Shown piece after piece: positions 6,840 through 52,710 of a DNA stretch of 64,000 nt. This DNA is from Oligoflexia bacterium (GTDB lineage: Bacteria; Bdellovibrionota; UBA1018): positions 48,092 to 112,091 of the forward strand of contig CAITVN010000080.1 in assembly GCA_903895855.1 (NCBI GenBank), given 5' to 3'. A model generated the notes under the pieces. The model was given only the letters and a program-made list of their open reading frames with translations. It was not told where the DNA came from and ran no database searches. How positions within the stretch are numbered: position 1 is the first letter of the stretch; each line of letters opens with the position of its first letter. Both the position numbers and the translations under genes were made by a program.

Positions 6840-6911
6840 TCACCCGCAAGTTTGCTTCACGTGTCACCCGCAAGTTTGGCTCGGCTATCACCCGCAAGTT
6901 TGCCTCACTTG
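6840..6911. promoter_or_regulatory. three tandem 24-bp direct repeats (tcacccgcaagtttgNNtc) in divergent promoter region of thiolase / protein-glutaminase genes
   Basis: tcacccgcaagtttg occurs at 6840, 6864, 6888 with exact 24-bp spacing, 35-105 bp upstream of the thiolase start codon (minus strand). Confidence 0.45.
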
Positions 6912-7030
6912 TCTAGCCACCTGCCTAACCCGTAAACACCCCGGCCATCAATCTTGGCCCAGGCCGGCGTCTACGGTCGGCCTTTACGATGAGCCACAAT
7001 GTGGCACTCTAATTGCGATGCTAGTTCACC

Positions 7031-7825
7031 TTGATGAAACCAAAACCGAAAATTGAGCTGAACCACTTAAAAACCCTCATCGCGCTCACTGGCCTAATCG
7101 CTGCGACTTCAGCGTTAATCATGGCAAGTTTGCCCGCCCGAGCTGAACCACTCTACCCAACCAAACACCGACGACTACCCAATGTTGAATTTTCTTCAGA
7201 AAAACAGCTTACTGGTTGGATTCGCTTACTCAATTCTGCTTCGCAAGTGCTCGACTTTGGTTCACTCCCCGACGGAACCCTTCCAGGCGCAGACGGCAAG
7301 CCACTCGAAGTGAGCATTCTCACTGAGACCCAAGCCTTTGCGCTTTTCGATGAACTGTCACATCTGCAAACGCTTGACTTCAATGTGATTCGCGACGGCT
7401 GCTACGCACGCGCGCACGAGATGGCGCAAATTCTAGACTCAAAACAAGTGGTCTCAGCTAAAGTTTTTGTCACCGGAGACCTCAAAGCACGAAGCGTCAC
7501 AGAACCCACGGGATATGCTTATTGGCGGTATCATGTCGCGCCGGTTGTCTTAGTCTTGAATGAGAATCGCCCACACGACAAGCAGCCGAAAGCTGCCTTG
7601 AGGGCTTGGGTTTTTGATCCAGGCCTGTTTGATCGCCCCACCCCCATTCAAGACTGGATAGATGCCCTATCGATCGAAAATCCGTATGACAAGACAGAGA
7701 GACCTTTCTTTTCTTTCAACACTCGTTTCAGGTACTCAATCAATGACCCCGACCCGATTGACCATTACCGCGATGAAGACTTGCTACACCAAAGAGAGAC
7801 ACTCGCTAAACTGAAGCACCATTAG
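7031..7825 (+). CDS. secreted protein-glutamine glutaminase-like (papain-like Cys-His) enzyme
   Basis: signal peptide; DGCYARAHEMAQIL and WRYHVAPVVLVLN match the catalytic Cys/His segments (DGCYARAHKMRQIL / WSYHVAILV) of Chryseobacterium protein-glutaminase as I recall them. Confidence 0.55.
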   Translation: MMKPKPKIELNHLKTLIALTGLIAATSALIMASLPARAEPLYPTKHRRLPNVEFSSEKQLTGWIRLLNSASQVLDFGSLPDGTLPGADGKPLEVSILTETQAFALFDELSHLQTLDFNVIRDGCYARAHEMAQILDSKQVVSAKVFVTGDLKARSVTEPTGYAYWRYHVAPVVLVLNENRPHDKQPKAALRAWVFDPGLFDRPTPIQDWIDALSIENPYDKTERPFFSFNTRFRYSINDPDPIDHYRDEDLLHQRETLAKLKHH

Positions 7826-7838
7826 AAGTCTGATTCTA

Positions 7839-8119
7839 CACTTAGGCTTCGGTGGCAACCCAAATGGATAAAGCTCAATGCCATCATTCGGAACGGCTCC
7901 TGCCTTGCCTGCACTTCACGTAATTCCAAATAAAATAGCTTCGCCTTATTTTGAACTCGGGCGTCGCATGGAGGCGACAATAGCCCGCGAAAACAGGAGG
8001 TTTGCTTCAAAATAAGGTGAAGCTATTTTATTTGGAATTACGTGAAGACGCATCCGCTCGCAGGAATCCTTTGATGGCATTGAGCTTTATCCATTTGGGT
8101 TGCCAGCGAAGCCTAAGTG
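7839..8119. repeat. nested-palindrome repeat element (REP/MITE-like), copy 1: 48-bp outer inverted repeats, 42-bp inner inverted repeats, 50-bp unique core
   Basis: outer arms 7839-7886 / 8072-8119 (1 mismatch), inner arms 7912-7955 / 8006-8047 (1 mismatch); core 7956-8005 ctcgggcgtcgcatggaggcgacaatagcccgcgaaaacaggaggtttgc shared with element at 24759-24810. Confidence 0.75.
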
Positions 8120-8130
8120 ACTAATCACCA

Positions 8131-9333
8131 TTAGAACCGGTAACTCACCTGACCAATGCCCGTGATCGAATAGGCAGACGACGCGAAGAAAAAATCTACC
8201 CCCACGCCCAAGCGCAAATCTCGCTCGAGGTAATAAAAAACAGTCGGCGAAACGCCGTACCCCAAATCAACGAGCGTTACTTTGTATTTTGCCAAGCTTA
8301 AGCTCAAATCAGTAGTCCAATCGTCATTGAGCACGTAACTGCCGCCGAGTTCAAATGCATAATCAGGAAACGATTCGACCAAGCGTTTCAAACTACTCAA
8401 ACGAAAAGAACCTGAAGGCGCGCCGCCGTCTTCACCAGAGAAAACCGGAATGAGACTCAAAAAAGAAGTGGCATCTTTACTATAAAAATAAGAGGTGTGA
8501 GCGCCTCGCAAACTAAATCCGCGAGGATCTGAATACCCCACGCGCAACCCAACTCCCTCACGGCCCAACTCTTCAAAACGAGTTTGGTGCGTGTAGCCTA
8601 CTAAAAGATGAAAATCGAGAGTAGGAATGAGCTCTAACTGAATCACCGGCACATCATCAATACTACGGTATTTTTTGTTGATTCCGACTTCGTTGGCGCC
8701 AACTTCAGTTTCAGAATCTTCGTCGTCGTCATCAACCGCCCCAGTTTCGCGGTCGTCGATGTGATGTTTCACCTTCAGTTTTCGAGTACTGAGCGGCAGA
8801 GTGTATCCCAGCTCAAAATCAACACTACCGCGTCGATACGGATCTAATTGAAAGGCACTTTCAAATTTTATCTGAGATTTAAATTGAATTTGGTCGTTGG
8901 GCTCATACCCAAGGCCGGTTGAAAATGAGTTCAGTAGTGAAAACGAACTCGAATAAGTCATCTGATAACCCAAGAGCCAACTTAATTCTGAAGGTTCTTC
9001 TGGGTAGCTTTCTAGCTCTTCTTTTTCTGCTTTCGTGAGCCAAATATTAGTCAAATCACTCGAGGGCTTTCTCAGCCTTCCGCCTCCAGAAAAAGCCTGG
9101 CTAAAATAGCCGGGCCCCGCTGAACTCAGCGCTTGAAAAAACTGCCTGTCGTCGATGGGTTTGGCGTCATGAGTTTCGTTACGGTCACGAGCATCAACAT
9201 GCGAACGGCCTTGAGAACTCGGTTGAGAACTGGCGTGAGAAGATAAAACAAACGATCCAGAAAACGTCAGCAACAAAAACAAAGAGGCGGCCCTGTTGAA
9301 GGGGCCGCCTCTTAGAGTGCGAAAAACAACCAA
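8131..9333 (-). CDS. outer-membrane beta-barrel protein (hypothetical)
   Basis: C-terminal ...GIGQVSYRF aromatic terminus, alternating amphipathic strands; signal-like region NRAASLFLLLTFSGSFVLSSHASS; 5' end trimmed to TTG 9333 because longer ORF overlaps sod. Confidence 0.45.
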   Translation of the reverse strand: MVVFRTLRGGPFNRAASLFLLLTFSGSFVLSSHASSQPSSQGRSHVDARDRNETHDAKPIDDRQFFQALSSAGPGYFSQAFSGGGRLRKPSSDLTNIWLTKAEKEELESYPEEPSELSWLLGYQMTYSSSFSLLNSFSTGLGYEPNDQIQFKSQIKFESAFQLDPYRRGSVDFELGYTLPLSTRKLKVKHHIDDRETGAVDDDDEDSETEVGANEVGINKKYRSIDDVPVIQLELIPTLDFHLLVGYTHQTRFEELGREGVGLRVGYSDPRGFSLRGAHTSYFYSKDATSFLSLIPVFSGEDGGAPSGSFRLSSLKRLVESFPDYAFELGGSYVLNDDWTTDLSLSLAKYKVTLVDLGYGVSPTVFYYLERDLRLGVGVDFFFASSAYSITGIGQVSYRF

Positions 9334-15049: not shown

Positions 15050-15664
15050 ATGAAAAACAAACGTCGCCCATACCAACCCATTTTTCCGGGCTTTAACCGA
15101 ACGACTGCCAAAGGTGCCCACGGCGGAGACCATACCTACGGAAAACGCAAGACTAAGCGCCCCTTTGATCCCAAACAGGCCCTGCATGTCGTTTTAAAAT
15201 CAAGCAAAGCGAAGGGGCAGTACTCCATGCTACACCCGCAACACTGCAATCACATCCGCAAGCTCATGACTCGACTAAAAACCCGCTGGCAAATCGCTGT
15301 TTATCGCTACGCAAACGTAGGAAACCACTTACACCTTCTCATACGGGCAAAATCTCTCGCAGACTGGCAGGGGTTTATTCGCGAGTTTTCTGGTGGCATT
15401 GCGATGATTGTAACGGGTGCTAAGAAAAGTCATGGCCTAGCCCGCTCAAAGTCAAAAGAGGTTTGCGAGAGCGCTAAGCGCGGTTTCTGGGATCACCTCG
15501 TCTTCACGCGCATCGTGCGTTTCGGGAAAGACTTCATAGCAGTCGCTGAATACGTTTTAAAAAACCTTTGGGAGGCCGCTGGAATACCCGTTCGCAAATT
15601 TCTTGCTAACGGCTACCGGATTCTCGAGTTTGACGAAGAAGGTTTTGTCTTGGTCGCTGAATAA
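15050..15664 (+). CDS. REP-associated tyrosine transposase (RAYT; IS200/IS605-like Y1 HUH transposase, domesticated single copy)
   Basis: HUH motif GNHLHLLIRAKS; C-terminal FWDHLVFTRIV...DFIAVAEYVLKNLWEAAG matches RAYT catalytic-Tyr block (fWdh..R......YIhlNPVkaGLV); ATG 15050 (ORF track start 15038 is TTG). Confidence 0.65.
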   Translation: MKNKRRPYQPIFPGFNRTTAKGAHGGDHTYGKRKTKRPFDPKQALHVVLKSSKAKGQYSMLHPQHCNHIRKLMTRLKTRWQIAVYRYANVGNHLHLLIRAKSLADWQGFIREFSGGIAMIVTGAKKSHGLARSKSKEVCESAKRGFWDHLVFTRIVRFGKDFIAVAEYVLKNLWEAAGIPVRKFLANGYRILEFDEEGFVLVAE

Positions 15665-16234: not shown

Positions 16235-16493
16235 TTTAATATTGGGGCCTAAGTTTTTGGTACTCAAAGGATCACCTCAAGAACCCAGAATATCACCTTG
16301 CCTCGCACATGACGGCGCTGTCGTCATATTTCTAGTAAAATTGACGACAGCGCCGTTACGCAATAAAAAAACTTAAATAACAGATAGTTAAGTGTGACGA
16401 CCACCAGAAAACGACATTAAAGAAGACTCGCCGACGAAGAGCTCCTATCAGACATCATGCGAGTGGTGAATTCGATGTGGTCTTTAAGAAAAT

Positions 16494-19674: not shown

Positions 19675-21441
19675 TTAGATTCCGATTGCACCGCCACTGC
19701 CTTCGCAGATCGGGCCAGTACAGATTGGCACTTGGTCAATCGGCACTGGAGTCTCAGTCGGAGTAGGCGTCGGACTCGGTGTCGGATCAGGGGTTGGCTC
19801 TGGCGTGACAGTCGGTGTTGGAGTCGGATCTGGAGTCACCGTCACAGTCGGGCTCGGAGTTGGAGTCGGATCTGGAGTCACTGTCACAGTTGGGCTCGGA
19901 GTTGGAGTCGGATCTGGAGTCACCGTCACAGTTGGGCTCGGTGTTGGAGTTGGGTCTGGAGTCACCGTCACAGTTGGGCTCGGTGTTACAGTCGGTACAG
20001 GACTCGGTGTTGGCGTTGGAGTCGCTGTCGGGCTTGGTACTGGGCTCGGAGTTACGGCAGGGATTTTCTCGCAGTACTGCACTTCAACTTTTGAACCAGC
20101 GGCGCCAGCGTTTTCTACTCGAACGAGATTTTTAGTCGCGCTGTATTCGCCACTCACTAATTGCCCGTCAACTTTGATTTTAATCGAAGCGACGTCAATG
20201 TCTTTCAAAATTTTCGTCAACACGAACTCGTGATTGAGTGTGAGTTTCTGGCTAGTGATAGCGCCAATTTGGGCCAAACCAGGAACGTAATTGGTTGAAG
20301 CTAGATCAACCACTGGACCTTTTGCGTAGTTGATCACATCTAAGTAACCGTAACCGAGTTCGTTTTCACCCGAATGCGGAATGGTTTTCAAATTGTTATA
20401 GAGAATGCCGCCCACGACAAGAGGTTGGGTTCCTTGAAGGACTCTTAATTTCGACAATAGACTGGTAGGGCTGATCGCTGCACAGTCTCTTTTCTTCGCA
20501 GGCACTTCGTAACCATCGGGGTCTGCTACTGGTTTAATGCCGGCCGGATACACCGCACAGATATCATTTTCATCAGCCACAAAGATCACCGCGAGAGCTG
20601 CAGTTTTTCTAAAAAATCCTTTTGCTCTAGCTTCAGTCAAGTGCCCCGTGTCTAGCGCATTCGTCAGAGAATACAACCCCTCTTCACCACCGTCACTAAA
20701 ACGATCTACGGGCTGATGGGTCATGAGAAATTTGAGGTTTGACCGAATCTGGGTGATCGATTGTTTCTTAGAACTCAATACCGGGCCAACCGAAGCATAC
20801 TGCCAGAGGCGCCCCATGTAAGGCGACCGACTGCCGTGAGCAGGCATCACGGCGATTTGGTAATCGACATCTTTTGGGAGCTCACGAACAAAGGCATCAA
20901 TGCCGTCAGCGATTTGAGACTTCTCTTGAACCATTGATCCTGAAGTATCAGTCACAAATAAAATATCTAATGATTGTGTAATGGTCACTGCGGGCTGCTG
21001 AAACTGATCGATTGAACAGTCAGCCACCGCTACTGGCGAAGGCACGACAGAAGGAGTCGGTGAAGGCGAAACATTGTGGCCACATCCGGCTGAGTGGTGG
21101 TGATCTTTGTCGTCATCGTCTTTGTCATGATTGCCCTTTTGTTTTTCGTGCTCCCTTTCGTTTTCTCTATCTTTTTCTCTATCTTGGCGTTCTTTATCTT
21201 TCGCCCTAGCGCGACTCAAGAGTTCCATAATTCTGTCAGTGAATGACATGTGCTTATCGACTGACTGGTCACTCTGAATTTGGGTGGTTTGAGCTGAACC
21301 CGCAGCCGAGTCAGCTGCGACTGGAACGCCTGGTTCAGATTGGCAGCCAGCACCAAAGGCAGTTAGTGATGAAAGGCTAATTAATACGAGCACTTGTCTC
21401 GACTTAAACCTACGACTCAAGAGTTGGATTTGGGTTTTCAT
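19675..21441 (-). CDS. secreted/lipoprotein von Willebrand factor A (vWA, MIDAS) domain protein with charged His-rich segment and C-terminal Pro/Thr tandem repeats
   Basis: signal peptide with FGAGC; MIDAS DTSGSM (DxSxS); [13 protein letters not shown]...DDDDKDHHH low-complexity; 4x [14 protein letters not shown]; Cys-rich tail CTGPICEG. Confidence 0.7.
19790..20010. repeat. 42-bp tandem coding repeats (about 4.5 copies) encoding PT-rich linker of vWA protein
   Basis: unit ggagtcggatctggagtcaccgtcacagttgggctcggagtt repeated head-to-tail; generates spurious ORFs on + strand (19663..20094, 19805..20233, 19815..20135). Confidence 0.8.
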
Positions 21442-23770: not shown

Positions 23771-24703
23771 TCAGCTGAGTTTCATCACCTGAGCCAACCC
23801 AGACGGAGTGCGAACCACTCCCGAGGCCCAAGGCGAAAGCGAAAATAGGCCCTTAACGTTTTCTGGCGCTGAGACGATTTGGCTATCGACGCCATCAACG
23901 GCGTAGACTTTAAGACCACTGTGGGTTGCAATGCAGATCCATTGATCTCCCATTTCACCTTGCCAATTCAGAGCCCCCTTGAGGTCAAGAAGCTGATGGG
24001 CTTTTCCGTCAATGACCACTTTCTGGGTCATGCGAGCCTCAGCAGCGATGCGACCAAACCCTACGAGCTTTTTCATTTCGAGCGCAATCTTTCGACCACA
24101 GACTCGAAACACTAAGTAGCGATCATCAGCGCCCAACACCGCAGCCCAATCAAAACCAGCCGCACCACCCAGGGCATCGACCCACTCGTCACTCAGTGAA
24201 TCAAAGGCCATTGAAATGAGTTCGCCGTTCCATTTACGAATGTGAATCTGATTTGCCTGAATCGAATCGATTAAGTGAACCGGCACCAACGCCTCACGTC
24301 CGCCTTCAAGGGTGACCTCATAAGCGGGGCAACTTAAAAAATCATGATTCAACCTAATTTGTTGATAAAATCCACCGCCCGCGTTCAACCCAACGTGGCG
24401 CCGACAATTGATGACACCCTTTTTACCAGTCTGCACCACTTCAACGATCAAATGCTGCGAATCAGGCGAAAGCGCTAAGCGATCAAGGGTGTCGTGAATC
24501 TCTTCAAAAAGCTCGAAACTCAGCTCTCCAGAAACCTGCACCCGCCAGTCATGAAAACGATTCAATTGCCCCAGATTTGCGATTTCATTTTGAGTGATCA
24601 AGATCGGTATTTCCTCAACTGACCTATCGTCAATCGAACAAAAACCCTTGATACGCCTTACTTGCCCAGTGTTGGCACCTGTCAGCCCAAGAACTAGCGC
24701 CAA
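23771..24703 (-). CDS. hypothetical protein (TTG start; reading frame stays open into upstream palindromic element)
   Basis: 310-aa ORF without internal Met until about residue 165; no recognised motif. Confidence 0.35.
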   Translation of the reverse strand: MALVLGLTGANTGQVRRIKGFCSIDDRSVEEIPILITQNEIANLGQLNRFHDWRVQVSGELSFELFEEIHDTLDRLALSPDSQHLIVEVVQTGKKGVINCRRHVGLNAGGGFYQQIRLNHDFLSCPAYEVTLEGGREALVPVHLIDSIQANQIHIRKWNGELISMAFDSLSDEWVDALGGAAGFDWAAVLGADDRYLVFRVCGRKIALEMKKLVGFGRIAAEARMTQKVVIDGKAHQLLDLKGALNWQGEMGDQWICIATHSGLKVYAVDGVDSQIVSAPENVKGLFSLSPWASGVVRTPSGLAQVMKLS

Positions 24704-24720
24704 TTCACTTTTAATCTCAT

Positions 24721-24846
24721 TTAAGGATTTGGCAGATTTGGTTTGAGTTATTTTTGGAACAAACCTCCTGTTTTCGCGGGCTTTTGTCGCATCCGTGCGA
24801 CGCCCGAGTCCAAAAATAACTCAAACCAAATCTGCCAAATCCTTAA
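24721..24846. repeat. nested-palindrome repeat element copy 2 (inverted orientation): 38-bp inverted-repeat arms flanking the same 50-bp core as 7956-8005
   Basis: arms 24721-24758 / 24809-24846 perfect; core 24759-24810 is reverse complement of copy-1 core (about 44/50 identical) while arms are unrelated to copy-1 arms. Confidence 0.75.
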
Positions 24847-24970
24847 GTGCGTAAGGGCAGGTTAACGCAAGGATGCGGTCCCATTCTTGGGTGGCCCGAG
24901 CTTGAGCGCCGCTAACCCGTGTTGAACGATAATTCAAATGAGGAGACGCTCCAATCTGGGCGAAGGGCCT

Positions 24971-30309: not shown

Positions 30310-32163
30310 ATGTCATATACTCAAATTCGTAACGCCTGCATCATCGCCCACGTCGACCATGGTAAAACTACCTTAGTTGATCACCTGCTTCGACAATCAG
30401 GCACCTTTCAATCACACCAACGTGTTGAAGAACGAGTCATGGACTCAATGGACCTTGAGCGAGAGCGCGGCATCACGATTTTAGCTAAGAACACTTCGGT
30501 TCGAGTGGGTGACGCAAAGATCAACATCGTCGACACCCCGGGCCACGCTGACTTTGGCGGCGAAGTTGAACGCATCATCGGCATGGTTGACGGAGCTTTG
30601 TTGCTTGTCGACGCGGCCGAAGGCCCACTACCTCAAACTCGATTCGTGCTGAGAAAAGCCCTCACACAAGGTCTGAAGGTGATCTTGGTTATCAACAAAG
30701 TTGATCGCCCTGACGCGAGAACTGACGAAATCGTTAACGCCGCGTTTGACCTATTCATTGACCTTGGCGCCACTGACGAGCAAGCGCATTTTCCGATCGT
30801 TTACGCCTGCGCACGACAAGGGTGGTGCACCACCGATCGCGCTGAAATGGAATTACTACTCAGCGGTGAGAAAAAAGGAAATTTGAAGCCCCTTTTCGAC
30901 CTGATCTTAAACACCGTACCACCGCCAAAAGTTCAAAAACTTGAACCCTTCGCCATGATGATTTCAAACCTTTCGTATTCTGATTATGTCGGTCGCCTTT
31001 CGATTGGCCGAGTTACCGCAGGCACCATCAAAAAGAATCAACGCATTTGGAGATTGAACGAAGGCAAACCCCAGAGCTTTGTTGCCACCCAACTCTATGT
31101 GTTCGAAGGACTCAAGCAAACTGAAGTTCAAGAACTCGAAGCCGGAGAAATCGGCGTCATCGCTGGTTGCGAAGAAACTGAAATCGGCGACACCATCGCT
31201 GACTCTGAGTTGACCCAACCCATGGTACGAATCGTGGTCGAAAAACCGACCCTCGCGATGCTGTTCTCTGTGAACACCTCACCGCTTTCAGGCAAAGAAG
31301 GCGAAGCCATTCAGTCTCGAAAATTAAGAGACCGCTTGCTTCGTGAAGTGAGGCAAAATGTGGCCTTACGACTTGAAGAAACACCGACCACCGACCAATT
31401 TAGAGTCTTAGGTCGGGGTGAACTTCAGTTTGCGATCTTGATTGAACAAATGAGACGAGAAGGTTTCGAGTTCATGATCGGCAAACCGACCGTGCTTTAC
31501 AAAATTGCCGAAGATGGCGGCCGCTTAGAGCCGATGGAGCGAGTCATCGCCGATGTACCTGAAAAGTACGCTTCAGACGCAACCCGACTGTTTCAAGAAC
31601 GAAAAGGCTTATTACTCAAGTACGAAGGCGGATCATCTCACGGCGGTGACCGCGTACGCCTCGAGTTTGAACTGCCTACCCGCGGCTTACTCGGTATGCG
31701 CTCGAAATTCATGACCATCACTCGTGGCGAAGGTCTGCTCAATACCTTCTTAAACGGCTTTGCGCCGCACAAAGGCGAGCTACCTCACCGAAACAGTGGT
31801 GCGCTGATTTCTGACCGCGCCGGCGATACCGTTGAATACGCCCTTCTCACACTCGAAGAACGCGGCGTCTTATTCTTGCGCCAAGGCGTGCCGGTGTACG
31901 AAGGCATGATCATCGGTGAGAACGCCAAAGAAAACGACATGAACGTCAACCCTTGCAAAGCCAAGAAGCTCACGAACATTCGTGCGGCTCACGCCGAACT
32001 CCTGGTCACTTTGTCTGGCATTCGAGACATGTCACTTGAGCAAACCCTCGAGTGGATCGACGAAGACGAGTGGATTGAAGTCACTCCGAAGTCGATTCGC
32101 ATTCGCAAGAAAGTGCTCTCGGGCAATCTTCGAAGCGTGAAGCGAGAAGACCGAATTAAGTAA
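30310..32163 (+). CDS. typA: translational GTPase TypA/BipA
   Basis: [23 protein letters not shown]1, DTPGHADF G3, NKVDR G4; 617 aa. Confidence 0.9.
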
Positions 32164-32178
32164 GATTTTCTCAGGTAA

Positions 32179-32227
32179 GAAAAAAAAGGGGGCCTAGGTG
32201 ATCTTCGATCAACTAGGCCCCCTTTTC
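32179..32227. terminator. bidirectional rho-independent terminator between convergent typA and downstream gene
   Basis: aaaaaaaa-gggggcctag-(15 nt loop)-ctaggccccc-ttttc. Confidence 0.7.
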
Positions 32228-32248
32228 ATTTATTATAAGACTTCGCCC

Positions 32249-34036
32249 CTACTTCATGAGTTGAATGTAGGTGGGTCGCAAGACCTGCCTCATCAAGAAA
32301 GAGCTGGCGTTTTGAATCAAAGTGGCTTGAGTCTTGATTTCTGAGTATTGAGCCCCAGCCCCAGCAGCACTCGTAATGATGCGCCAGTAGTGATGATCGA
32401 GGGTTGAAAGCGAAACCGTTCGAACAGGTGACATCGCGTTGCCCCAGTCTTCTAGAGTGAAAAGTTCCCACACATTGATGTGATTCGAGTTGATATTAAA
32501 GCCTTCGCCGCCACCATTTTCGGCAGTCAAATACACTCCTTCAGAGTCTCGAAAGGCACCTTTATAAACCTTGGTTCCATCATTTTGGGTATACGGTATT
32601 TCTAGGTAATCAAACCCACACCACTGTCCTGCCTGATTACCCCCCACTTCACTAAACATGACGAGTGAGGCCTCTTCAGAAAAATCTGACCTTCGCAGGC
32701 AGCGATTATCTTTCAACGTATTAGAATTCTGAAGAATCACTTTAACTCCTTCTAAATCAACCAGGTCAAACGACTCCCAAACTGAAGGCTGCACACCAGC
32801 AACATTCACCTCGCCACCTCCGCCGAGCTTTGCTTGAAGAAAATGATTTTTGTCTGAAGACCTAAACCCAACTGTTCCGTTTGGTTTAGACACTGACTTA
32901 AAAATCTCCCAAGAATCTAATTGAGTTGCAGAGGTGTCTGTTTTGCCACCACCCCCATTTTTTGCCGAAATGTAATTACCGTTGGGCAATTTGAAGGCAA
33001 TGCTATTCGAAGACTGCGAGTTCAAATAACCGAGGTCAATCAATCTAAGCGTCGTCTCAGGTATGATGTAAGTAGCCTCGGCATTTAAGTTACTTTGATT
33101 CTGCAAGTTCACTCCCACATAAGTGCCAGTTTGAGTCTTCAGTGCAACTCGACGGCCATTTAACTCAACCACTTTGAGAGTGGTGGTGAGGTCTTTGAGT
33201 TTTCCTAGACCAGTGAGAAGAGTCGAAGTTAAATTTGAAGTCCCCAGCAGCATACCATAATAGGTGTGCAAATAATCAGTCTTCGAAACCGATCTGAAGT
33301 GATCAAACAACTCCCAGTCGTCGATGTGGTCTTTCGAAGCCGTAATTGCGCCTAATCCGTTGTCGGCACTCAAGTACAAGCCATTCTTTTTTGAGCGATA
33401 GGCAAAGGTTCCATCAAGAAGGTCTACCCGGTAAAACGTTTCATCGGTGCCAATCCAGCGTGAATCAAACTTTACGGTGCCATCGTCATAAGCACGTAAG
33501 TATTTCTCAAGGTACTGGTGGCGAATCGCAACGGGTTCGCCATTTAACCAAATTCCTTTAAATTGAGCTTGTTTAATATTTGAAGTCACGGCGGTCGCTT
33601 CAAGAATCCACTGGCCATCGGTTTTTTCAGTAATTCTCAAAAACTTGCCGTTTGCTGCCACAAATGCCCAAGTATTCGAAAATAGGTCTAAAGAAACCAT
33701 CCTAAAAGTCTCGTTCATCCCAGGATTCGACACCTTCATCGCGCGAATGAGACCCGAATCTGAATTGATCAAACTGAAATACAATCCGCCATTCGTCTTA
33801 AGTTGAGCCTGATTGTCAAACCCAGTGTTGTCAAATGACTGGGCCGGACCAATTTTTTGAGACTCGGCGGCAATGGTTTTCAGTTCTGACGGGTCAGATT
33901 CTTGAATACTGAGATACAGACCGTTATAGGCACGATAGGCCCTACTTCCCGCATTTGCACCAGAAGTCGTTAAAGTAGCGATTACAAGTAGCATCGATGT
34001 CATCATTTTTTTCATAGGCTTTATTCCTTTTTGCAC
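32249..34036 (-). CDS. secreted protein of tandem fascin-like beta-trefoil repeats (paralog A)
   Basis: signal peptide; about 11 repeats of G-x-Y-L-S/T-A...G...W-E-L/I-F pattern (e.g. KKNGLYLSADNGLGAITASKDHIDDWELF); about 75% identical to 37580..39391. Confidence 0.55.
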   Translation of the reverse strand: MQKGIKPMKKMMTSMLLVIATLTTSGANAGSRAYRAYNGLYLSIQESDPSELKTIAAESQKIGPAQSFDNTGFDNQAQLKTNGGLYFSLINSDSGLIRAMKVSNPGMNETFRMVSLDLFSNTWAFVAANGKFLRITEKTDGQWILEATAVTSNIKQAQFKGIWLNGEPVAIRHQYLEKYLRAYDDGTVKFDSRWIGTDETFYRVDLLDGTFAYRSKKNGLYLSADNGLGAITASKDHIDDWELFDHFRSVSKTDYLHTYYGMLLGTSNLTSTLLTGLGKLKDLTTTLKVVELNGRRVALKTQTGTYVGVNLQNQSNLNAEATYIIPETTLRLIDLGYLNSQSSNSIAFKLPNGNYISAKNGGGGKTDTSATQLDSWEIFKSVSKPNGTVGFRSSDKNHFLQAKLGGGGEVNVAGVQPSVWESFDLVDLEGVKVILQNSNTLKDNRCLRRSDFSEEASLVMFSEVGGNQAGQWCGFDYLEIPYTQNDGTKVYKGAFRDSEGVYLTAENGGGEGFNINSNHINVWELFTLEDWGNAMSPVRTVSLSTLDHHYWRIITSAAGAGAQYSEIKTQATLIQNASSFLMRQVLRPTYIQLMK

Positions 34037-36816: not shown

Positions 36817-37571
36817 AGATCATGAGTTTCACCTCGCTTCTGACTACCTTTTTCGCCATTGCCAATTTTTCGCCCAGTATCGCACCCGCACTTGCCGGTG
36901 ATCCGGCTGATGATTCACCTCATGATTCATCTCATGTTACAATCGAGCCCGCTCAGATTGATTACCTTTGCATCGCAAGCTTAGTGCAGTTTGCTCCGAA
37001 CACTTCTAAACCCACATTATTAAACTCAGATTCAGCCCCAATCGTCTTTCGACGCAAAGTAGCGAGTTCACTTGGCGGTTCACCAGGTATTTCATCAAAC
37101 AATATAATTGAAGAAACGTATCGATTTAGAATTGCTGCCACCAATCTGTTAACTAATTTAACCAATCGGGCCGAAGAGATAATCCCCCTTCATTCTTTAA
37201 GAGAAGAATTTCCGGGTGTTTCACACCCGAAAGTTGTCGTGTCGTTTACACAATCTGGCCCAGTCAGCAATTGGCCTGGTCAGTATGTATTTGGTGCCAT
37301 TCAAAATGATCAAGGCGACTTCGCTGGTTGCCAAACATTCAGCTATCCTACCGTTAGGTCTTGCAGTGCCACAGTCGCAGTGAATGACGCCGCCCGCGAC
37401 TTTTCGGGTCTTGCCCAACTACACTGTGCTTCGACTGACGAATTGAAGCAAGATCAGGTCAAGCTGTTCAGTTCCAACTCAAAGGCTGACGTCGGAACCC
37501 AAGAACTATTGAGTGAAGTGACTCGCACCGTAAAAGCTTCAGCAAAAAAGACGCCATCGAAAAATCAATAA
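36813..37571 (+). CDS. hypothetical secreted protein
   Basis: ATG 36813 after GGAGA SD; signal peptide MKIMSFTSLLTTFFAIANFSPSIAPALA. Confidence 0.4.
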   Translation: MKIMSFTSLLTTFFAIANFSPSIAPALAGDPADDSPHDSSHVTIEPAQIDYLCIASLVQFAPNTSKPTLLNSDSAPIVFRRKVASSLGGSPGISSNNIIEETYRFRIAATNLLTNLTNRAEEIIPLHSLREEFPGVSHPKVVVSFTQSGPVSNWPGQYVFGAIQNDQGDFAGCQTFSYPTVRSCSATVAVNDAARDFSGLAQLHCASTDELKQDQVKLFSSNSKADVGTQELLSEVTRTVKASAKKTPSKNQ

Positions 37572-37579
37572 TTTTAGCC

Positions 37580-39391
37580 TCACGGCTTCATCAATTGAAT
37601 GTAGTTTGGTCGCAAAAACTGACGCATCAAGAATGAGGTACCATTCTGAATCAACTTTGTCTGCGCAGTAACCTCAGAGACTTGAGTTGAATCAGCGGGA
37701 TAAACAATTCTCCAAAAGTGCTGATCTAAGGTCGAAATCGAAACCGTTCGCACAGGCGAATTCGCGCTACCCCAATCATTTAGAGTAAACAATTCCCACA
37801 CATTAATGTGGTCGCTATTAATCTCAAACGCTTCGCCACCACCGTTACTGGCCGTTAGGTAATTTCCCTCGGTATTGCGAAAAACGCCTTTGACCACCTT
37901 AGAGCCGTCAGGCTGAATGTACGGAATTTCAATGTAATCAAATGAACACCAAATTCCTGCTTGATTGCCTCCAACTTCAGGATTCATAGCCAAGCTGGCT
38001 TCATCAGCAAGACCTATCGTGCGCACACACCGGTTGTCTTTCAAGGTATTCGAGTTTTGAAGAATCACCTTTTTTCCTTCTAGGTCGACCACTTCGAACG
38101 ACTCCCACTGGCCCGATTGCGTTCCCGTCACATTCACACTACTGCCTCCACCCGAAGCCGCTTGAAGGTAGTGCTTTTTGTCAGAAGTTCGAAATGACAG
38201 CACTCCGTTCGGTTTCGATACGACCTTAAAGATTTCCCACGAGTCGACGGCGGTTGCAGTCGTACCGACGCTAGTACCACCGCCATTTAAAGCAGTGAGG
38301 TATTTGCCATTAGAAAGTTTGATTGCAACTGCATTGGCTGCCAAAGAATCGAGATAACCTAAATCAACGAGGTTCATCACTGCCTCTGAAGGTATTTGAA
38401 TAGTCTCGGCCTTAAGCGGCTGTTGCGCCTCTGCGTCTAGAGTCACATAATTGCCGGACTGGGTCTTGAGCGCAACCCGTCGGCCATTGAGCTCGACCAC
38501 CTTAAGCATGGTTGTGAGGTCTTTGGTTTTTCCAACTCCACTCAAAAGGTCAGACGTTTTCGATGCGGTACCCAAGAGCATGCCATAGTAGGTATGAAGG
38601 TAATCGTTCTTCGCTGTCGTTTGAAAATGGTCAAAAAGCTCCCAGTCGTCAATGTGATCTTTCGACGCGGTGACCAAACCCAGCCCGTCTTCGGCACTGA
38701 AATACAAACCGTTCTTTTTTGAGCGATAGGCAAACGTACCGTCAAGAAGATTCACTCTGTAGAATGTTTCGTCTGCACCAATTCGATTAGAGTCGAACTT
38801 TAATGTTCCATCATCGTATGCCCGCAGATACTTTTCAGGGTATTGATGACGAATTGCTACCGGCTCACCATTTAACCAAATTCTTTTAAACTGAGCTTGT
38901 TTAATAGAAGTTGAGGTAGCAGTGGCCTCCAGAACCCATTTGCCATCTGGCTGTGCTGTAATTCTCAGATACTTACCATTCGCGGCCGCAAACGCCCAAG
39001 TGGTGTAAAACGGATCGAGCGAAACCAATCTGAAAGTCTCATTGGGTCCCGGCGTCGAAGTTTGAATTGCACCCATAAGTCCTGAGTTAAAGTCTATGAC
39101 ACTAAGGTAAAAGCCATCGCTTGTTTTCAACTGCGCTTGATCACCTCCTATTATTGGGTTTTCAAAACTCTGAGAAGGACCGATTCGTTGAGAATCAGCT
39201 ACGACAGTTTTCAATCCGGTTGATGATGAATCTTGAACACTGAGATAAAGATTATTGTAGGCACGATAAGCTCTTGGGCCGGCGCTTGCCAGTGTTGAGA
39301 TCGACAGACTCGCAGCGAAAACGATTAAAACAGCGAGAGCACTCTTTGTCAGATTCAGCATTTTATTTTTCATAAACGTCTTTCTTTTCAT
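37580..39391 (-). CDS. secreted protein of tandem fascin-like beta-trefoil repeats (paralog B)
   Basis: 603 aa; collinear with paralog A throughout (shared RAYRAYN, GEPVAIRHQY, DHIDDWELFDHF, NVWELFTL, SFLMRQ). Confidence 0.55.
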   Translation of the reverse strand: MKRKTFMKNKMLNLTKSALAVLIVFAASLSISTLASAGPRAYRAYNNLYLSVQDSSSTGLKTVVADSQRIGPSQSFENPIIGGDQAQLKTSDGFYLSVIDFNSGLMGAIQTSTPGPNETFRLVSLDPFYTTWAFAAANGKYLRITAQPDGKWVLEATATSTSIKQAQFKRIWLNGEPVAIRHQYPEKYLRAYDDGTLKFDSNRIGADETFYRVNLLDGTFAYRSKKNGLYFSAEDGLGLVTASKDHIDDWELFDHFQTTAKNDYLHTYYGMLLGTASKTSDLLSGVGKTKDLTTMLKVVELNGRRVALKTQSGNYVTLDAEAQQPLKAETIQIPSEAVMNLVDLGYLDSLAANAVAIKLSNGKYLTALNGGGTSVGTTATAVDSWEIFKVVSKPNGVLSFRTSDKKHYLQAASGGGSSVNVTGTQSGQWESFEVVDLEGKKVILQNSNTLKDNRCVRTIGLADEASLAMNPEVGGNQAGIWCSFDYIEIPYIQPDGSKVVKGVFRNTEGNYLTASNGGGEAFEINSDHINVWELFTLNDWGSANSPVRTVSISTLDQHFWRIVYPADSTQVSEVTAQTKLIQNGTSFLMRQFLRPNYIQLMKP

Positions 39392-39559: not shown

Positions 39560-39975
39560 AAAAACGCAAAGTTCTTAGTCACTTTGTCTGGAATTCGAGA
39601 CATGTCACTTGAGCAAACACTTGAGTGGATCGACGAAGACGAATGGATCGAAGTCACTCCGAAATCGATTCGCATTCGCAAAAAAGTACTCTCGGGTAAC
39701 CTTCGCAGCGTGAAGCGAGAAGACCGAATTAAGTAAGATTTTCTCAGTAAATAAAAAGACTTCGCCCCAACTTCATGAGTTGAATGTAGTTTGGTCGCAA
39801 AAACTGCCGCATCAAGAATGAGGTACCCTTCTGAATCAACTTTGTCTGCGCCGTAACCTCAGAGACTTGAGTTGAATCAGCGGGATAAACAATTCTCCAA
39901 AAATGCTGATCTAAGGTCGAAATCGAAACCGTTCGCACTGGCGAATTCGCGCTACCCCAATCATTTAGAGTAAAC
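39560..39975. pseudogene. segmental-duplication remnant: copy of typA 3' end (last about 50 codons + stop) fused to copy of last about 75 codons of beta-trefoil paralog
   Basis: 39586-39735 about 90% identical to 32014-32163 (typA 3' end); 39770-39970 near-identical to 37580-37800 (paralog B 3' end) but junction sequence resembles paralog A stop region; terminator hairpin of original locus absent. Confidence 0.7.
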
Positions 39976-50679: not shown

Positions 50680-51123
50680 ATGAATCACTCACCCCACAGT
50701 CTTTGGAAAAATACCCCGACCATTGCCGAACTCAATCAACTATCGAAAAACACGATTCACGAGTCTCTCGGAATTGAGTTCACTCAAATAGAAAATGATT
50801 TCATTGAAGCCCGCATGCCGGTTGACCGACGCACCCATCAACCGTTCGGACTGCTTCACGGCGGAGCTTCAGTGGTACTCGCCGAATCTCTCGGAAGCGT
50901 GGCTTCAACCCTAGTGACTTGGGGCGAGGGCAAGACTTGCGTCGGAGTCGAAGTCAACGCCAATCACTTAAAAAGCGTTAAAGCGGGCGCCGTACTCGGA
51001 CGAGTCAGCGCAATCAAAATCGGAAGAACTCTGCATGTCTGGGAAATTCGACTACACGACGAATCTTCTGGCGCACTCGTTTGCATCAGCCGGTTAACCG
51101 TTGCGGTTTCGGCCAGAAACTAA
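50680..51123 (+). CDS. PaaI/hotdog-fold acyl-CoA thioesterase
   Basis: GLLHGGASVVLAESLGS hotdog thioesterase signature; 147 aa. Confidence 0.7.
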   Translation: MNHSPHSLWKNTPTIAELNQLSKNTIHESLGIEFTQIENDFIEARMPVDRRTHQPFGLLHGGASVVLAESLGSVASTLVTWGEGKTCVGVEVNANHLKSVKAGAVLGRVSAIKIGRTLHVWEIRLHDESSGALVCISRLTVAVSARN

Positions 51124-51196
51124 CCCCCACCGAGAATTTTCAAGGGCTCTTCTTTTTGGTTTTTTGAAGACGTCCTCGCCTTTGGATCGACGTACG

Positions 51197-51324
51197 TTTT
51201 TTAAGAGTTGCGCGTAGGTGCTCATCTATTCTTGCTCCTCTTGCGAGGCACGATGCCGAGAGCAAGAAAACAGGATGTTTGTGGAGCAAGAACAGATGAG
51301 CACCTACGCGCAACTCTTAAAAAA
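51197..51324. repeat. perfect 31-bp-stem inverted repeat with structured 66-nt loop between convergent genes (possible bidirectional terminator or mobile/structured element)
   Basis: ttttttaagagttgcgcgtaggtgctcatct (51197-51227) vs agatgagcacctacgcgcaactcttaaaaaa (51294-51324); inner palindrome ttcttgctc/gagcaagaa and repeated gagcaagaa. Confidence 0.6.
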
Positions 51325-51402
51325 TACACAACACAGTGACTACGGCTGCGGAATGTCTTCTAAAAACCAAAAAGAAGAGCCCTTGAAAATTCTCGGTGAC
51401 GA

Positions 51403-52710
51403 TTAAGTTAACTGCTTTTCGAGTTTTAAAAATCGGCCTTTACGAAGCTTACCCTGTAAACCGATCACGCGATTAGCAGGGTTAAAGAGTCTTCGTGCCA
51501 AGTCTTGAATGTCTTCGCGGCTAACCGCACGAAATCTCGCTTTCCAATCAGCCAAATTCTTAGGCAACGGCAAATCAAACAACTCAATCTCGCCAAGCCG
51601 AATACCCCAAATTCCCGCTCTTTCAAAGAGCTGATCTGCTTCACGTGATAACCTCGCTTGCACTTTTTCAAACTCGGCTTCTGGTATCAATTCGCTTTGA
51701 AGTTTTTCAAACTCTTCTAGAATCAAGTCGATCACTTCACTTAGATTTCGATCACTCACCCGAAACGAAACTTCGAATAGCCCACAAATACTGAGCGTGT
51801 CGGTCGATGCGTTGATATCGTAGAGAAGCCCACGATTTTCACACAAACTACGCTGTAAACGCGACGACAACCCGTCGTCGAGTAGGCGTTCAAGAAAGAG
51901 CTGAGAAAAAAATTCAGGCTCACTTTCTGAAAACCCGCGAAAGCTTATTAGAGTCTCAATTTGTGAGCTCGACTCTTCAAGATAATAAAGCCGTGGCCCG
52001 ACAAACGTTCCATGCACAGGGTAACTACCCTCTAAACCAGAAAAATCACCCGTGGGAAACTTCGAGGCAAATGAGAGGTACTTTTCACCCCAGTAAAAAA
52101 AATCAGACTCATTCACCGCCCCTGCACACACGACGATCATTTGAGAGGGGGCATAGAAATGATTGAAAAAATGCCGAACATCTTCGGAAGTCAAGGCCCC
52201 TACCGAAGGTTTTCGCCCTAAAATCGGCTTCGCCACTGGCTCAGAGCCGTAAATCATCGAGCGACTGACATTTTCTAAGAGGTTTTCACTTCCTTGTTCG
52301 TCGAGCTCTTCTTGAATCTCTTCAAACACAATTCCTTTTTCAGTTTCGATTTCTTTCAAAAGTGGACCTGAAAACAAGAGCCCTAGCGCTCGAATAGCTG
52401 CCTCGAGGTTTTCACGTGGCACTTCAATTGAATAATTACTGTACTCTCTAGTCGTCGCACCTTGAAGGCCATCGCCCAGAGTTTCGAAATGTGCGTTGAG
52501 CTCAGTGCTAGAGGGATACTCGGCACACCCCCGAAATAACAAATGCTCAACGAAGTGACCAATACCCGAAAATTTTGAATTTTCAAATCGTGGCCCGGAC
52601 TTCACAAACACTTGCAGCACTGCAAACTTGCTGATCGTATCATTAATGTACGGAGCACAGATCAACCTTAGGCCATTGCCTAAAGTACGGGTATCAATTT
52701 GACTCAACAT
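51403..52710 (-). CDS. M16-family zinc peptidase (pitrilysin-like)
   Basis: inverted zinc motif HFVEHLLF (HxxEH); 435 aa. Confidence 0.7.
   Translation of the reverse strand: MLSQIDTRTLGNGLRLICAPYINDTISKFAVLQVFVKSGPRFENSKFSGIGHFVEHLLFRGCAEYPSSTELNAHFETLGDGLQGATTREYSNYSIEVPRENLEAAIRALGLLFSGPLLKEIETEKGIVFEEIQEELDEQGSENLLENVSRSMIYGSEPVAKPILGRKPSVGALTSEDVRHFFNHFYAPSQMIVVCAGAVNESDFFYWGEKYLSFASKFPTGDFSGLEGSYPVHGTFVGPRLYYLEESSSQIETLISFRGFSESEPEFFSQLFLERLLDDGLSSRLQRSLCENRGLLYDINASTDTLSICGLFEVSFRVSDRNLSEVIDLILEEFEKLQSELIPEAEFEKVQARLSREADQLFERAGIWGIRLGEIELFDLPLPKNLADWKARFRAVSREDIQDLARRLFNPANRVIGLQGKLRKGRFLKLEKQLT

What the first reader, a model, noticed from the sequence alone, without database searches (positions are those of the whole stretch)
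24721..24846. Second copy of the same 50-bp core, inverted, but flanked by completely different 38-bp inverted-repeat arms
The core 24759-24810 is the reverse complement of 7956-8005 at about 44/50 identical, with differences concentrated in the small hairpin loop. The flanking perfect 38-bp inverted repeats share no similarity with the copy-1 arms. A conserved core embedded in non-homologous palindromes is unusual. It implies one of two things. The core may be a mobile unit that inserts into pre-existing hairpin apices, as IS200/IS605-RAYT-type elements and some MITEs do. Alternatively it may be a conserved protein/RNA-binding module presented on variable stems. The downstream gene 23771..24703 starts with TTG, and its frame stays open through the whole element for more than 40 codons. 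The insertion may therefore have displaced that gene's original start.
Basis: seen in the sequence. Interest (0 to 1): 0.7.

Follow-up and report, generated by a model that had tools for sequence, protein, structure and literature searches.

The report
Foldback insertion element with conserved tip
A small non-coding DNA element occurs three times in this uncultured Bdellovibrio-like genome: the same roughly 50-base folded tip sits on long, near-perfect hairpin stems that differ at every copy, and it matches no described repeat or RNA family.

Summary

- **Copies.** The window holds three copies of the core, not two: 7956-8005 (+), 24759-24808 (-) and 51239-51282 (+).
- **Inner stems.** Each core sits exactly at the tip of a 41-42-nt inverted repeat with at most one mismatch. 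The stem sequence is different in every copy.
- **Outer stems.** Copies 1 and 3 are enclosed in a second, unrelated inverted repeat of 44-56 nt. This gives 285-298-nt hairpin-in-hairpin structures that fill the gap between convergent genes from stop codon to stop codon.
- **Core fold.** The core folds as a three-way junction. One branch is a bulged hairpin whose stems vary by paired changes. The other is a mini-hairpin inside a 16-nt block, GAAAACAGGAKGTTTG, that is conserved 15-16 of 16.
- **Evidence of insertion.** Copy 1 as a whole is bracketed by an 11-bp direct repeat, CACCATTAGAA, that carries the stop codons of both neighbouring genes. The structure is therefore inserted DNA.
- **Independent support.** Separate assemblies reproduce copies 1 and 2 base for base.
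- **No known relatives.** Nothing matches in Rfam, phage, plasmid or viral collections. Genome and metagenome pattern scans gave only chance hits.

My best reading, at moderate confidence, is a lineage-specific foldback-type insertion element. I infer that its stems are written and kept perfect by fold-back (template-switch) copying around the core.

The link to the REP-associated tyrosine transposase (RAYT) gene and the "displaced start codon" idea are not supported.

The parts
24718..24758 (-). Copy 2, core-proximal-to-gene arm (right arm in core orientation); perfect part 24721-24758
   Evidence: Inverted repeat I5/I6, 41 nt, 98%; identical in L228-L230
24759..24808 (-). Copy 2 core: three-way junction module (P1 CGGGC/GCCCG, P2 GTCGC/GCGAC, P3 AAAC/GTTT), 16-nt conserved block at 24760-24775
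   Evidence: covariance-model hit 81.9 bits
24809..24849 (-). Copy 2, distal arm (left arm in core orientation); perfect part 24809-24846; contains the in-frame stop of the extended ORF
7817..7827 (+). Copy 1 left direct repeat CACCATTAGAA; contains stop TAG (7823-7825) of gene 7031-7825
   Evidence: 0 of 2000 shuffles reach 11 nt; present in L231
7831..7886 (+). Copy 1 outer left arm (best part 7839-7886, 1 mismatch in 48)
   Evidence: 56 nt, 93%; fold
7887..7913 (+). Copy 1 left spacer (unpaired bubble, 27 nt)
   Evidence: not similar to partner, core or copy 3 spacers
7914..7955 (+). Copy 1 inner left arm
   Evidence: 42 nt, 98%
7956..8005 (+). Copy 1 core; 16-nt conserved block at 7989-8004
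   Evidence: 81.7 bits
8006..8047 (+). Copy 1 inner right arm
8048..8071 (+). Copy 1 right spacer (24 nt)
8072..8127 (+). Copy 1 outer right arm
8126..8136 (+). Copy 1 right direct repeat CACCATTAGAA; contains stop TTA (=TAA, 8131-8133) of the minus-strand gene 8131-...
51121..51171 (+). Copy 3 outer left arm (best part 51128-51171, 1 mismatch in 44); starts at stop TAA of gene 50680-51123
   Evidence: 51 nt, 92%
51172..51196 (+). Copy 3 left spacer (25 nt)
51197..51238 (+). Copy 3 inner left arm
   Evidence: 42 nt, 98%
51239..51282 (+). Copy 3 core (diverged: P1 CTTGC/GCAAG, P2 GGCA/TGCC, P3 AAACA/TGTTT); conserved block 51266-51281 GAAAACAGGATGTTTG
   Evidence: covariance-model hit 23.6 bits, E 1e-4
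51283..51324 (+). Copy 3 inner right arm
   Evidence: short-read contigs L099/L100 stop 16 nt into it
51325..51354 (+). Copy 3 right spacer (30 nt)
51355..51405 (+). Copy 3 outer right arm; ends on stop TTA (=TAA) of M16 peptidase gene 51403-52710(-)
23771..24601 (-). Gene downstream of copy 2 as called in public data (276 aa, TTG start with GAGGA upstream); context, not part of the element
15050..15664 (+). HUH-Y1 (IS200/RAYT-like) ORF; candidate enzyme only, no sequence link to the element

Best explanation
The finding is one of three copies of a lineage-specific, non-coding, hairpin-forming (foldback-type) insertion element in an uncultured Bdellovibrionota genome.

**Shown: anatomy**
- Each copy has a conserved 44-50-nt apical module that folds into a three-way junction.
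- One branch is a bulged hairpin (P1 enclosing P2). The other is a mini-hairpin (P3) that displays AGGAG or GGA in its loop.
- The module contains an almost invariant 16-nt block, GAAAACAGGAKGTTTG.
- The module sits exactly at the tip of a 41-42-bp near-perfect stem whose sequence is unique to each copy.
- In two copies this hairpin is enclosed, after unpaired spacers of 24-30 nt, by a second unique stem of 44-56 bp.

**Shown: insertion**
- At copy 1 the whole nested structure is inserted DNA. It is bracketed by an 11-bp direct repeat.
- Deleting the element together with one copy of the repeat restores two convergent genes with overlapping stop codons (TTAG).

**Inferred: origin of the stems**
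- The stems are neither inherited with the module nor pre-existing targets.
- They are written by fold-back (template-switch or self-primed) DNA synthesis that uses the structured module as the turn-around loop and copies whatever lies beside it.
- This could happen at the replication fork or on a single-stranded mobilisation intermediate. The same process would keep the two arms identical.
- A second round, priming about 25-30 nt outside the first hairpin, would give the outer stem and the unpaired spacers.

**Inferred: effect**
- Both convergent mRNAs would end in a very stable hairpin, -169 to -188 kcal/mol as RNA.
- That hairpin probably blocks read-through or protects 3' ends, so the insertions are tolerated or useful.

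The enzyme that mobilises the element is unknown.
For: **Copies and structure**
- Three copies share the same architecture.
- The 16-mer is enriched, 3 found against 0.16 expected.
- All three copies give the same three-way-junction fold, with both RNA and DNA parameters and on both strands.
- P1 changes from CGGGC/GCCCG to CTTGC/GCAAG, and P2 and P3 are also kept by paired changes, while the 16-nt block stays 15/16.
- A covariance model finds exactly these three copies and no solo core in 111 kb.

**Stems are copy-specific**
- Cores 1 and 2 are 94% identical, yet their arms are unrelated beyond 7-11 nt.
- All five inverted repeats are unique within about 80 kb of this genome.
- All five carry 0-1 internal mismatch.
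- There is no core-less long palindrome in the window or the extensions.

**Insertion**
- The 11-bp direct repeat CACCATTAGAA at 7817-7827 and 8126-8136 holds both stop codons. None of 2000 shuffles reached 11 nt.

**Real sequence**
- Independent assemblies agree with the window.

**Literature**
- Template switching is an established way to create and homogenise inverted-repeat arms (PMC5941160, read).
- PMC8794818 and PMC8604942 make the same point in their abstracts.
Against: - Only three copies from one 64-kb window, plus about 16 kb of extensions, could be studied. The rest of the genome and any close relative were unreachable.
- The two nested copies have very similar geometry: outer arms 56 and 51 nt, 185 and 183 nt between them, and inner arms of 42 nt in both. 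That is more regular than random template switching predicts. It would be natural for a conserved mobile unit.
- The direct repeat at copy 1 encloses the complete nested structure, as for an ordinary miniature transposon that moved as a unit.
- No significant direct repeat flanks copy 2, copy 3 or any inner hairpin.
- No ancestral, arm-less state has been seen.
- Nothing shows transcription or any effect on the neighbouring genes. The terminator scan found no classical terminator.
Confidence: 0.4

Rival explanations
1. Conventional miniature transposons. Arms plus core, and outer arms plus everything inside them, are fixed repeat units belonging to several subfamilies. Each subfamily would be present elsewhere in the genome with the same terminal inverted repeats and would be moved by transposases that recognise those repeats. 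The window simply samples one member of each subfamily.
For: - An 11-bp direct repeat brackets the full nested copy 1, like a target-site duplication.
- The elements are small, carry no ORF and sit between genes.
- The two nested copies have the same overall size and geometry.
- REPs embedded in longer conserved palindromes are known (PMC3733652, section 7).
Against: - Five different inverted-repeat pairs occur in about 80 kb and none is repeated.
- Cores 1 and 2 are 94% identical while their arms are at random similarity. That needs module swapping between families.
- The three elements share no terminal sequence, so no single end-binding transposase could act on them.
- No significant duplication flanks copies 2 and 3.
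- No DDE transposase gene lies in the window.
Confidence: 0.22
2. The core, about 64-72 nt with its own short inverted repeat, is a tiny single-strand transposon of the IS200/IS605-RAYT type. It inserts into the single-stranded tips of palindromes that were already there.
For: - Cores 1 and 2 share 7-11 nt of flanking inverted repeat, so the conserved unit is slightly larger than the loop (I1).
- A HUH-Y1 ORF with HLH and YVLKN motifs lies 7-9 kb away.
- Hairpin tips are single-stranded, which this transposase class prefers (established knowledge of IS200/IS605).
Against: - There are no empty long palindromes in about 80 kb. Every one carries a core or a core-bearing hairpin.
- Without the core, the inner arms would be loop-less perfect palindromes of 62-84 bp. 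That is not a normal genomic feature.
- Hitting the exact centre three times, and twice more for inner-in-outer, would need very strict targeting.
- The flanks of the Y1 gene are not similar to the core.
- The Y1 ORF scores below the curated cut-offs.
Confidence: 0.1
3. A functional RNA scaffold. The conserved tip is a protein- or ribosome-binding module, with AGGAGG presented in a loop. The roughly 42-bp duplex stems are the variable, information-carrying part, for example precursors of double-stranded or guide RNAs, or locus-specific regulators. The palindromes would be maintained by selection on the RNA.
For: - Stem length is constant at 41-42 bp in all three copies.
- The structured tip is conserved with paired changes.
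- A perfect Shine-Dalgarno-like AGGAGG lies in the P3 loop of copies 1 and 2.
Against: - The single arm mismatches are G-T compatible on different strands in different copies, so there is no strand-specific signal (read from the sequences).
- The arms match nothing else in about 80 kb of the genome.
- One 23-nt stretch of each inner arm gave no exact match in viral contigs.
- No promoter-like site was found.
- No Rfam family matches.
- There are no expression data.
Confidence: 0.1
4. Purely local replication errors. The core is an ordinary conserved regulatory or terminator sequence that is not mobile. The palindromes are independent template-switch mutations at three unrelated loci.
For: Template switching makes perfect inverted repeats de novo (PMC5941160, read; PMC8794818, abstract).
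Against: - The 11-bp direct repeat shows that copy 1 is an insertion between genes that formerly overlapped.
- The core is absent from the syntenic regions of relatives that could be read.
- The core occurs in both orientations and in different gene contexts.
Confidence: 0.08

Closest known systems
REP / REPIN elements with RAYT transposases (PMC3116915, PMC3733652)
   Same: Both are short, non-coding, hairpin-forming intergenic repeats, often at the 3' ends of convergent genes. A HUH-Y1 gene is present in the same genome. REPs can lie inside longer palindromes (PMC3733652, section 7).
   Different: - REPs are 20-40-nt units with a GTAG or CGTC tag. They are homologous across tens to hundreds of copies, and a REPIN is two inverted copies of the same REP.
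- Here the long arms are not homologous between copies and only the loop module is conserved.
- No tag is shared by all three cores. CGTC occurs only in cores 1 and 2.
- The Y1 gene is not flanked by the element.
Bacterial palindromic miniature transposons (MITEs: Correia, ERIC/IRU and RPE elements; own knowledge)
   Same: Size of 130-300 bp, no ORF, whole-length hairpin potential, intergenic insertion, and a direct repeat at the borders of copy 1.
   Different: In those families the terminal inverted repeats are the conserved part, recognised by the transposase, and the interior varies. Here the conservation pattern is reversed and the ends share nothing.
IS200/IS605-derived palindrome-associated elements (own knowledge)
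   Same: A small conserved DNA hairpin as the likely recognition feature, no terminal inverted repeat consensus, and a possible single-strand intermediate.
   Different: Those elements have two different subterminal hairpins, make no target duplication and insert next to a fixed tetra- or pentanucleotide. Here there is one central module, long perfect arms and an 11-bp direct repeat at copy 1.
Template-switch (quasi-palindrome) mutations that create or perfect hairpins (PMC5941160, PMC8794818, PMC5453318)
   Same: This mechanism produces near-perfect arms flanking an unchanged spacer, homogenises arms and can invert spacers. It explains unique arms around a common loop.
   Different: It is described as sporadic, short (mostly under 20 nt) events at unrelated sites. 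It is not described as a recurrent 42-56-nt process tied to one conserved, dispersed module.
Eukaryotic foldback elements and hairpin (Stowaway-like) miniature transposons (own knowledge)
   Same: Elements that are almost entirely a long inverted repeat around a short central loop.
   Different: Their arms are family-specific repeats. They are unknown in bacteria in this form, and there is no evidence of common descent.

Membership tests
REP / REPIN (RAYT-associated) | 20-40-nt imperfect palindrome with a conserved GTAG or CGTC tag at one end | tested here: not met
   Cores 1 and 2 contain CGTC overlapping P2. Core 3 has neither CGTC nor GTAG (sequences).
REP / REPIN (RAYT-associated) | A REPIN is two inverted copies of the same REP, homologous between copies in the genome | tested here: not met
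   The arms are not similar between copies and are unique in about 80 kb.
REP / REPIN (RAYT-associated) | The RAYT gene is flanked by its own REPs | tested here: not met
   350 nt on each side of ORF 15050-15664 show no significant similarity to any core, p at least 0.096. The ORF scores below the curated cut-offs.
REP / REPIN (RAYT-associated) | Tens to hundreds of copies per genome | not testable with these tools
   Only about 80 kb of the genome was reachable, with 3 copies.
Miniature inverted-repeat transposable element (transposase-dependent) | Terminal inverted repeats conserved within the family | tested here: not met
   The outer and inner arms of the three copies share no sequence.
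Miniature inverted-repeat transposable element (transposase-dependent) | Target-site duplication of fixed length at every copy | tested here: inconclusive
   An 11-bp direct repeat flanks copy 1 (0 of 2000 shuffles). None is significant at copies 2 and 3 or at the inner arms.
Miniature inverted-repeat transposable element (transposase-dependent) | Short (under 600 bp) and non-coding | tested here: met
   132-298 nt. Only short chance ORFs are present, and no conserved peptide is shared between copies (and reading of the sequences).
IS200/IS605-derived palindrome-associated element | Distinct subterminal hairpins at both ends, no target duplication, insertion 3' of a fixed short motif | tested here: not met
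   There is a single central module. Copy 1 has an 11-bp direct repeat. The left flanks share no motif.
Any described RNA family (Rfam 15, including self-cleaving ribozymes and 6S RNA) | Covariance-model match at or near the gathering score | tested here: not met
   No hit at the gathering threshold in the window. At E up to 10, the only notable hits are generic microRNA-precursor hairpin models far below their cut-offs.
Intrinsic (bidirectional) terminator | Short G+C-rich hairpin followed by a U tract | tested here: not met
   The scans give no more sites than shuffles, and none at the base of the large hairpins.
Integron attC site | Conserved boxes at the stem base with a variable centre; integron integrase and a cassette array nearby | tested here: not met
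   Conservation is at the tip, not the base. No integrase was found among the window ORFs scanned.
Template-switch-generated inverted repeat | One arm is ancestral and the other replaced or added, shown by comparison with an outgroup | not testable with these tools
   No close relative exists in the collections; the best M16 peptidase homologue is 41% identical. Syntenic loci of distant relatives lack the element.

The most novel reading that the evidence does not exclude
A palindrome-writing mobile module. This would be a structured DNA or RNA element of about 50-70 nt that is recognised by its three-way-junction tip rather than by terminal sequences. During mobilisation or replication it would self-prime fold-back synthesis. 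Every new copy would then acquire long perfect arms copied from whatever flanked the donor. Repeated rounds would build hairpin-in-hairpin structures with unpaired spacers. The model predicts that the arms and spacers of one copy match the flanks of another copy elsewhere in the genome. A related possibility is that the constant 42-bp duplexes are functional, programmable stems.
Probability: 0.25. Interest if true: 0.85.

Novelty: new variant of a known kind. Interest (0 to 1): 0.6.

Why it matters
Bacterial intergenic repeats such as REPs and miniature transposons are defined by conserved ends or conserved palindromes. Here the pattern is reversed: a conserved tip sits on unique, near-perfect stems, in two nested layers.

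If the stems are written by fold-back copying around a mobile module, this would be a natural system in which long perfect hairpins are made to order from arbitrary sequence. That bears on three questions:
- how new RNA hairpins and long palindromes arise;
- how genomes tolerate them;
- whether structure-guided, rather than end-sequence-guided, mobilisation exists in bacteria.

There is also a practical point. Short-read contigs stopped inside copy 3, although copies 1 and 2 were assembled through, so such elements may be under-reported in metagenome-assembled genomes.

Tried and rejected
**Searches that found no relative**
- Known RNA families. Rfam was run on the whole window and on single cores. 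The only notable hits were generic hairpin models. My recalled resemblance to a twister ribozyme and to a CRISPR repeat got no support and was dropped.
- Public collections. The 16-mer in viral contigs gave 26 loci, none with flanking inverted repeats. The 17-mer in 185,579 species genomes gave 72 loci, all chance. The source genome is evidently not in that set.
This scan is inconclusive.
- blastn of the core against plasmids and phages found nothing. One 23-nt stretch of each inner arm gave no exact match in viral contigs.
- tRNA or tmRNA origin: none found.

**Ideas tested on the sequences and rejected**
- *The spacers are an older, split core, giving nested insertion of like into like.* The summed spacer lengths, 51 and 55 nt, fit a core. 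However, the spacers are not significantly similar to the cores, to each other or to their partners.
- *Flank motifs such as TCCTNGCNTT are conserved outside the arms.* Not significant.
- *The arms were copied from elsewhere in the locus.* No match in about 80 kb.
- *The proximal arm of copy 2 is old coding sequence of the downstream gene.* Homologues cover only residues of about 217-331, and the public gene call starts downstream.
- *A small peptide is translated from the AGGAGG.* No start codon lies at a usable distance, and no peptide is conserved (reading).
- *The cores resemble the RAYT flanks.* Only a shared 9-mer, not significant.

**Attempts to get more sequence or empty sites**
- Orthologous empty sites. 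The lineage has no close relative. Distant relatives keep the PhoH-M16 and BipA synteny but have no long inverted repeats.
- More of the same genome through paralogues. The search found only the in-window paralogue.
- Strain polymorphism or core inversion. All independent assemblies are identical in sequence and orientation.

Full report
**1. What is there**

The sequence at 24718-24849 is as described. A perfect 38-nt inverted repeat, 41 nt with one mismatch, encloses a 50-nt core. The core is the reverse complement of 7956-8005 at 46/49. The internal differences lie in the small hairpin loop (two) and the bulge (one).

The window holds a third copy that the finding did not mention. Its core is at 51239-51282 and its 42-nt arms are at 51197-51238 / 51283-51324.

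Copies 1 and 3 are also enclosed by a second, unrelated inverted repeat:
- copy 1: 7831-7886 / 8072-8127, 56 nt at 93%;
- copy 3: 51121-51171 / 51355-51405, 51 nt at 92%.

Non-complementary spacers of 24-30 nt separate the outer repeat from the inner hairpin. The best-paired parts of all five inverted repeats carry zero or one mismatch.

Such repeats are rare elsewhere.

**2. It is real sequence**

- Three assemblies from other samples contain copy 2 with identical sequence and orientation.
- A fourth assembly spans the whole nested copy 1, including its flanks.
- Two short-read contigs reach copy 3 and stop 16 nt into the inner arm.

**3. The core**

All three cores fold the same way with RNA or DNA parameters and on either strand. 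They form a three-way junction at the tip of the long stem. It has these parts:
- a 5-6-bp stem, P1;
- a 4-5-bp hairpin, P2, enclosed by P1, with a 4-nt bulge;
- a mini-hairpin, P3 (AAAC/GTTT).

Core 3 is diverged but keeps every stem through paired changes: P1 CGGGC/GCCCG becomes CTTGC/GCAAG, P2 GTCGC/GCGAC becomes GGCA/TGCC, and P3 becomes AAACA/TGTTT.

The 16-nt block GAAAACAGGAKGTTTG stays 15/16. It occurs three times in the window against 0.16 expected.

With effectively two independent sequences, this covariation is suggestive rather than statistical.

A covariance model built from cores 1 and 2 finds core 3 at E about 1e-4. It finds nothing else in 111 kb, made up of the window, 16 kb of the same genome and 28 kb of relatives. 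There are therefore no solo cores.

**4. The arms**

Between copies the arms, the spacers and the outer flanks are at random similarity. The one exception is the 7-11 nt next to the core in copies 1 and 2 (I1).

No arm or spacer matches anything else in about 80 kb of this genome. One 23-nt stretch of each inner arm gave no exact match in viral contigs.

The loop and bulge positions of cores 1 and 2 differ at only 3 of about 10 sites. Arms inherited with the core should therefore still be recognisably similar, and they are not. The arms were acquired independently of the core.

**5. Insertion signature**

Copy 1 as a whole is bracketed by the 11-bp direct repeat CACCATTAGAA, at 7817-7827 and 8126-8136. 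None of 2000 shuffles reached this length, and the repeat is also present in the independent assembly.
- The left copy supplies the stop TAG of the plus-strand gene.
- The right copy supplies TTA (= TAA) of the minus-strand gene.

Removing the element and one repeat reconstructs two convergent genes with overlapping stops (TTAG). This explains why the structure fills the gap from stop to stop. It also shows that all 298 nt between the repeats are inserted DNA.

Copy 3 likewise reaches from stop to stop, but it has no significant direct repeat. A 3-bp TAA repeat is possible but carries no statistical weight. Copy 2 and the inner hairpins have none.

**6. Context**

The window is ordinary chromosome. 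It encodes enolase, BipA, PilT, superoxide dismutase, Mla proteins and peptidases.

BipA is 72-77% identical to its best-matching homologues, several of which are labelled Bdellovibrio, Bdellovibrionia or Oligoflexia. A less conserved protein has no homologue above 41%. The lineage is therefore isolated, and no orthologous empty site could be obtained. Syntenic loci of distant relatives contain no long inverted repeats.

The window contains no reverse transcriptase, integrase, DDE transposase or cas gene. The only candidate enzyme is a HUH-Y1 ORF at 15050-15664:
- it has HLH and YVLKN motifs;
- it scores below the Pfam and NCBIfam cut-offs;
- its flanks are unrelated to the core.

**7.

The extended frame of gene 23771-24703 is open only from inside the distal arm, where an in-frame stop lies. 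Public gene calls start the protein at TTG 24601, preceded by GAGGA. No homologue covers the upstream part. A displaced start is not supported.

**8. Interpretation**

These observations fit best with arms that are written next to the core by fold-back copying:
- a near-identical core on unrelated arms;
- five unique, near-perfect inverted repeats;
- arms that abut the core exactly on both sides;
- no core-less palindromes and no solo cores.

Fold-back here means template switching at the fork or self-priming on a single-stranded intermediate. This process is known to create and homogenise inverted repeats (PMC5941160, read; abstracts of PMC8794818 and PMC8604942). The direct repeat at copy 1 adds that the structure, or its precursor, arrived by insertion.

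The main competing reading is ordinary miniature transposons with several arm subfamilies. Two facts favour it: the direct repeat encloses the whole nested unit, and the two nested copies have nearly the same geometry. Only a whole-genome census can decide between the two readings.

Any function is inferred from position and stability alone (-169 to -188 kcal/mol as RNA). Candidates are a read-through block or 3'-end protection for convergent genes that previously overlapped.

**9. Comparison with known kinds**

The element works most like REP/REPIN and palindromic miniature transposons, being a small, hairpin-forming, intergenic insertion. It nevertheless fails their defining tests:
- no shared GTAG or CGTC tag;
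- arms not homologous between copies;
- ends not conserved;
- the Y1 gene not flanked by it.

It is not in Rfam. I therefore file it as a new variant of the known kind "bacterial palindromic intergenic repeat". Its distinctive trait is reversed conservation: a constant tip on variable stems, in nested layers.

**10. Limits**

The evidence rests on three copies in one uncultured genome. The genome and metagenome pattern scans are exhausted, and the metagenome scan was truncated. There are no expression or population data. Confidence in the mechanism is moderate to low.

Noticed in passing
window 19728-20062 (best array 19812-19995): A tandem array with a 42-nt period, 4.4-7 copies at 92% match. 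It lies inside the 588-aa ORF 19675-21441, which weakly matches a Bdellovibrio MIDAS-family adhesin model. It is probably a repeat-length-variable surface protein.
   Followed up: no
window 31991-34036, 37566-39391 and 39564-39975: Two paralogous Fascin/DUF7910 genes (32249-34036 and 37580-39391) are 66% identical as proteins. A 205-nt segment, 37586-37790, is repeated at 97% at 39771-39975, and the upstream region is repeated at 90% (31991-32184 and 39564-39757). This points to recent local duplication. No further paralogue was found in public data.
   Followed up: partly
window 6838-6913: Three tandem copies of a 24-nt unit (TGTCACCCGCAAGTTTGCCTCACC, 78% match) lie in the intergenic region between the thiolase gene (5607-6806, minus strand) and ORF 7031-7825. 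It may be a regulatory repeat.
   Followed up: no
window 32184-32226 and 16312-16356: Two 20-nt near-perfect palindromes with 3-5-nt loops. The first is AAAAGGGGGCCTAGGTGATC / GATCAACTAGGCCCCCTTTT, between the convergently oriented BipA gene and ORF 32226-32471. They look like the ordinary bidirectional terminators of this genome. They contrast with the far larger hairpins studied here.
   Followed up: no
window 15050-15664: A HUH-Y1 (IS200/RAYT-like) ORF with NHLHLL and EYVLKN motifs and a basic N-terminal extension. It scores below the curated cut-offs. Its flanks carry small hairpins (AATAATGAA/TTCATTATT and GCGAAG/CTTCGC) that are unrelated to the core.
   Followed up: partly
L099/L100 ends (window about 51309) and L231 end (window about 7755): Short-read contigs of this organism stop reproducibly 16 nt into the inner arm of copy 3. 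L231 ends near 7755, inside the gene left of copy 1, and by my coordinate arithmetic a second contig for which no DNA was returned starts at about the same point. Nested palindromes may fragment metagenome assemblies and so be under-sampled in genome collections.
   Followed up: partly
whole window: GC skew is negative throughout the window, about -0.02 to -0.18. The window therefore lies within one replichore, with the plus strand C-rich. The cores lie in both orientations relative to it.
   Followed up: no
window 51403-52710 and relatives L225, L226: The lineage is very isolated. The M16 peptidase has no homologue above 41% identity among 5.8 billion proteins, while BipA reaches 77%. The PIN-PhoH gene is followed by the M16 peptidase gene in two distant relatives, as in the window.
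   Followed up: partly
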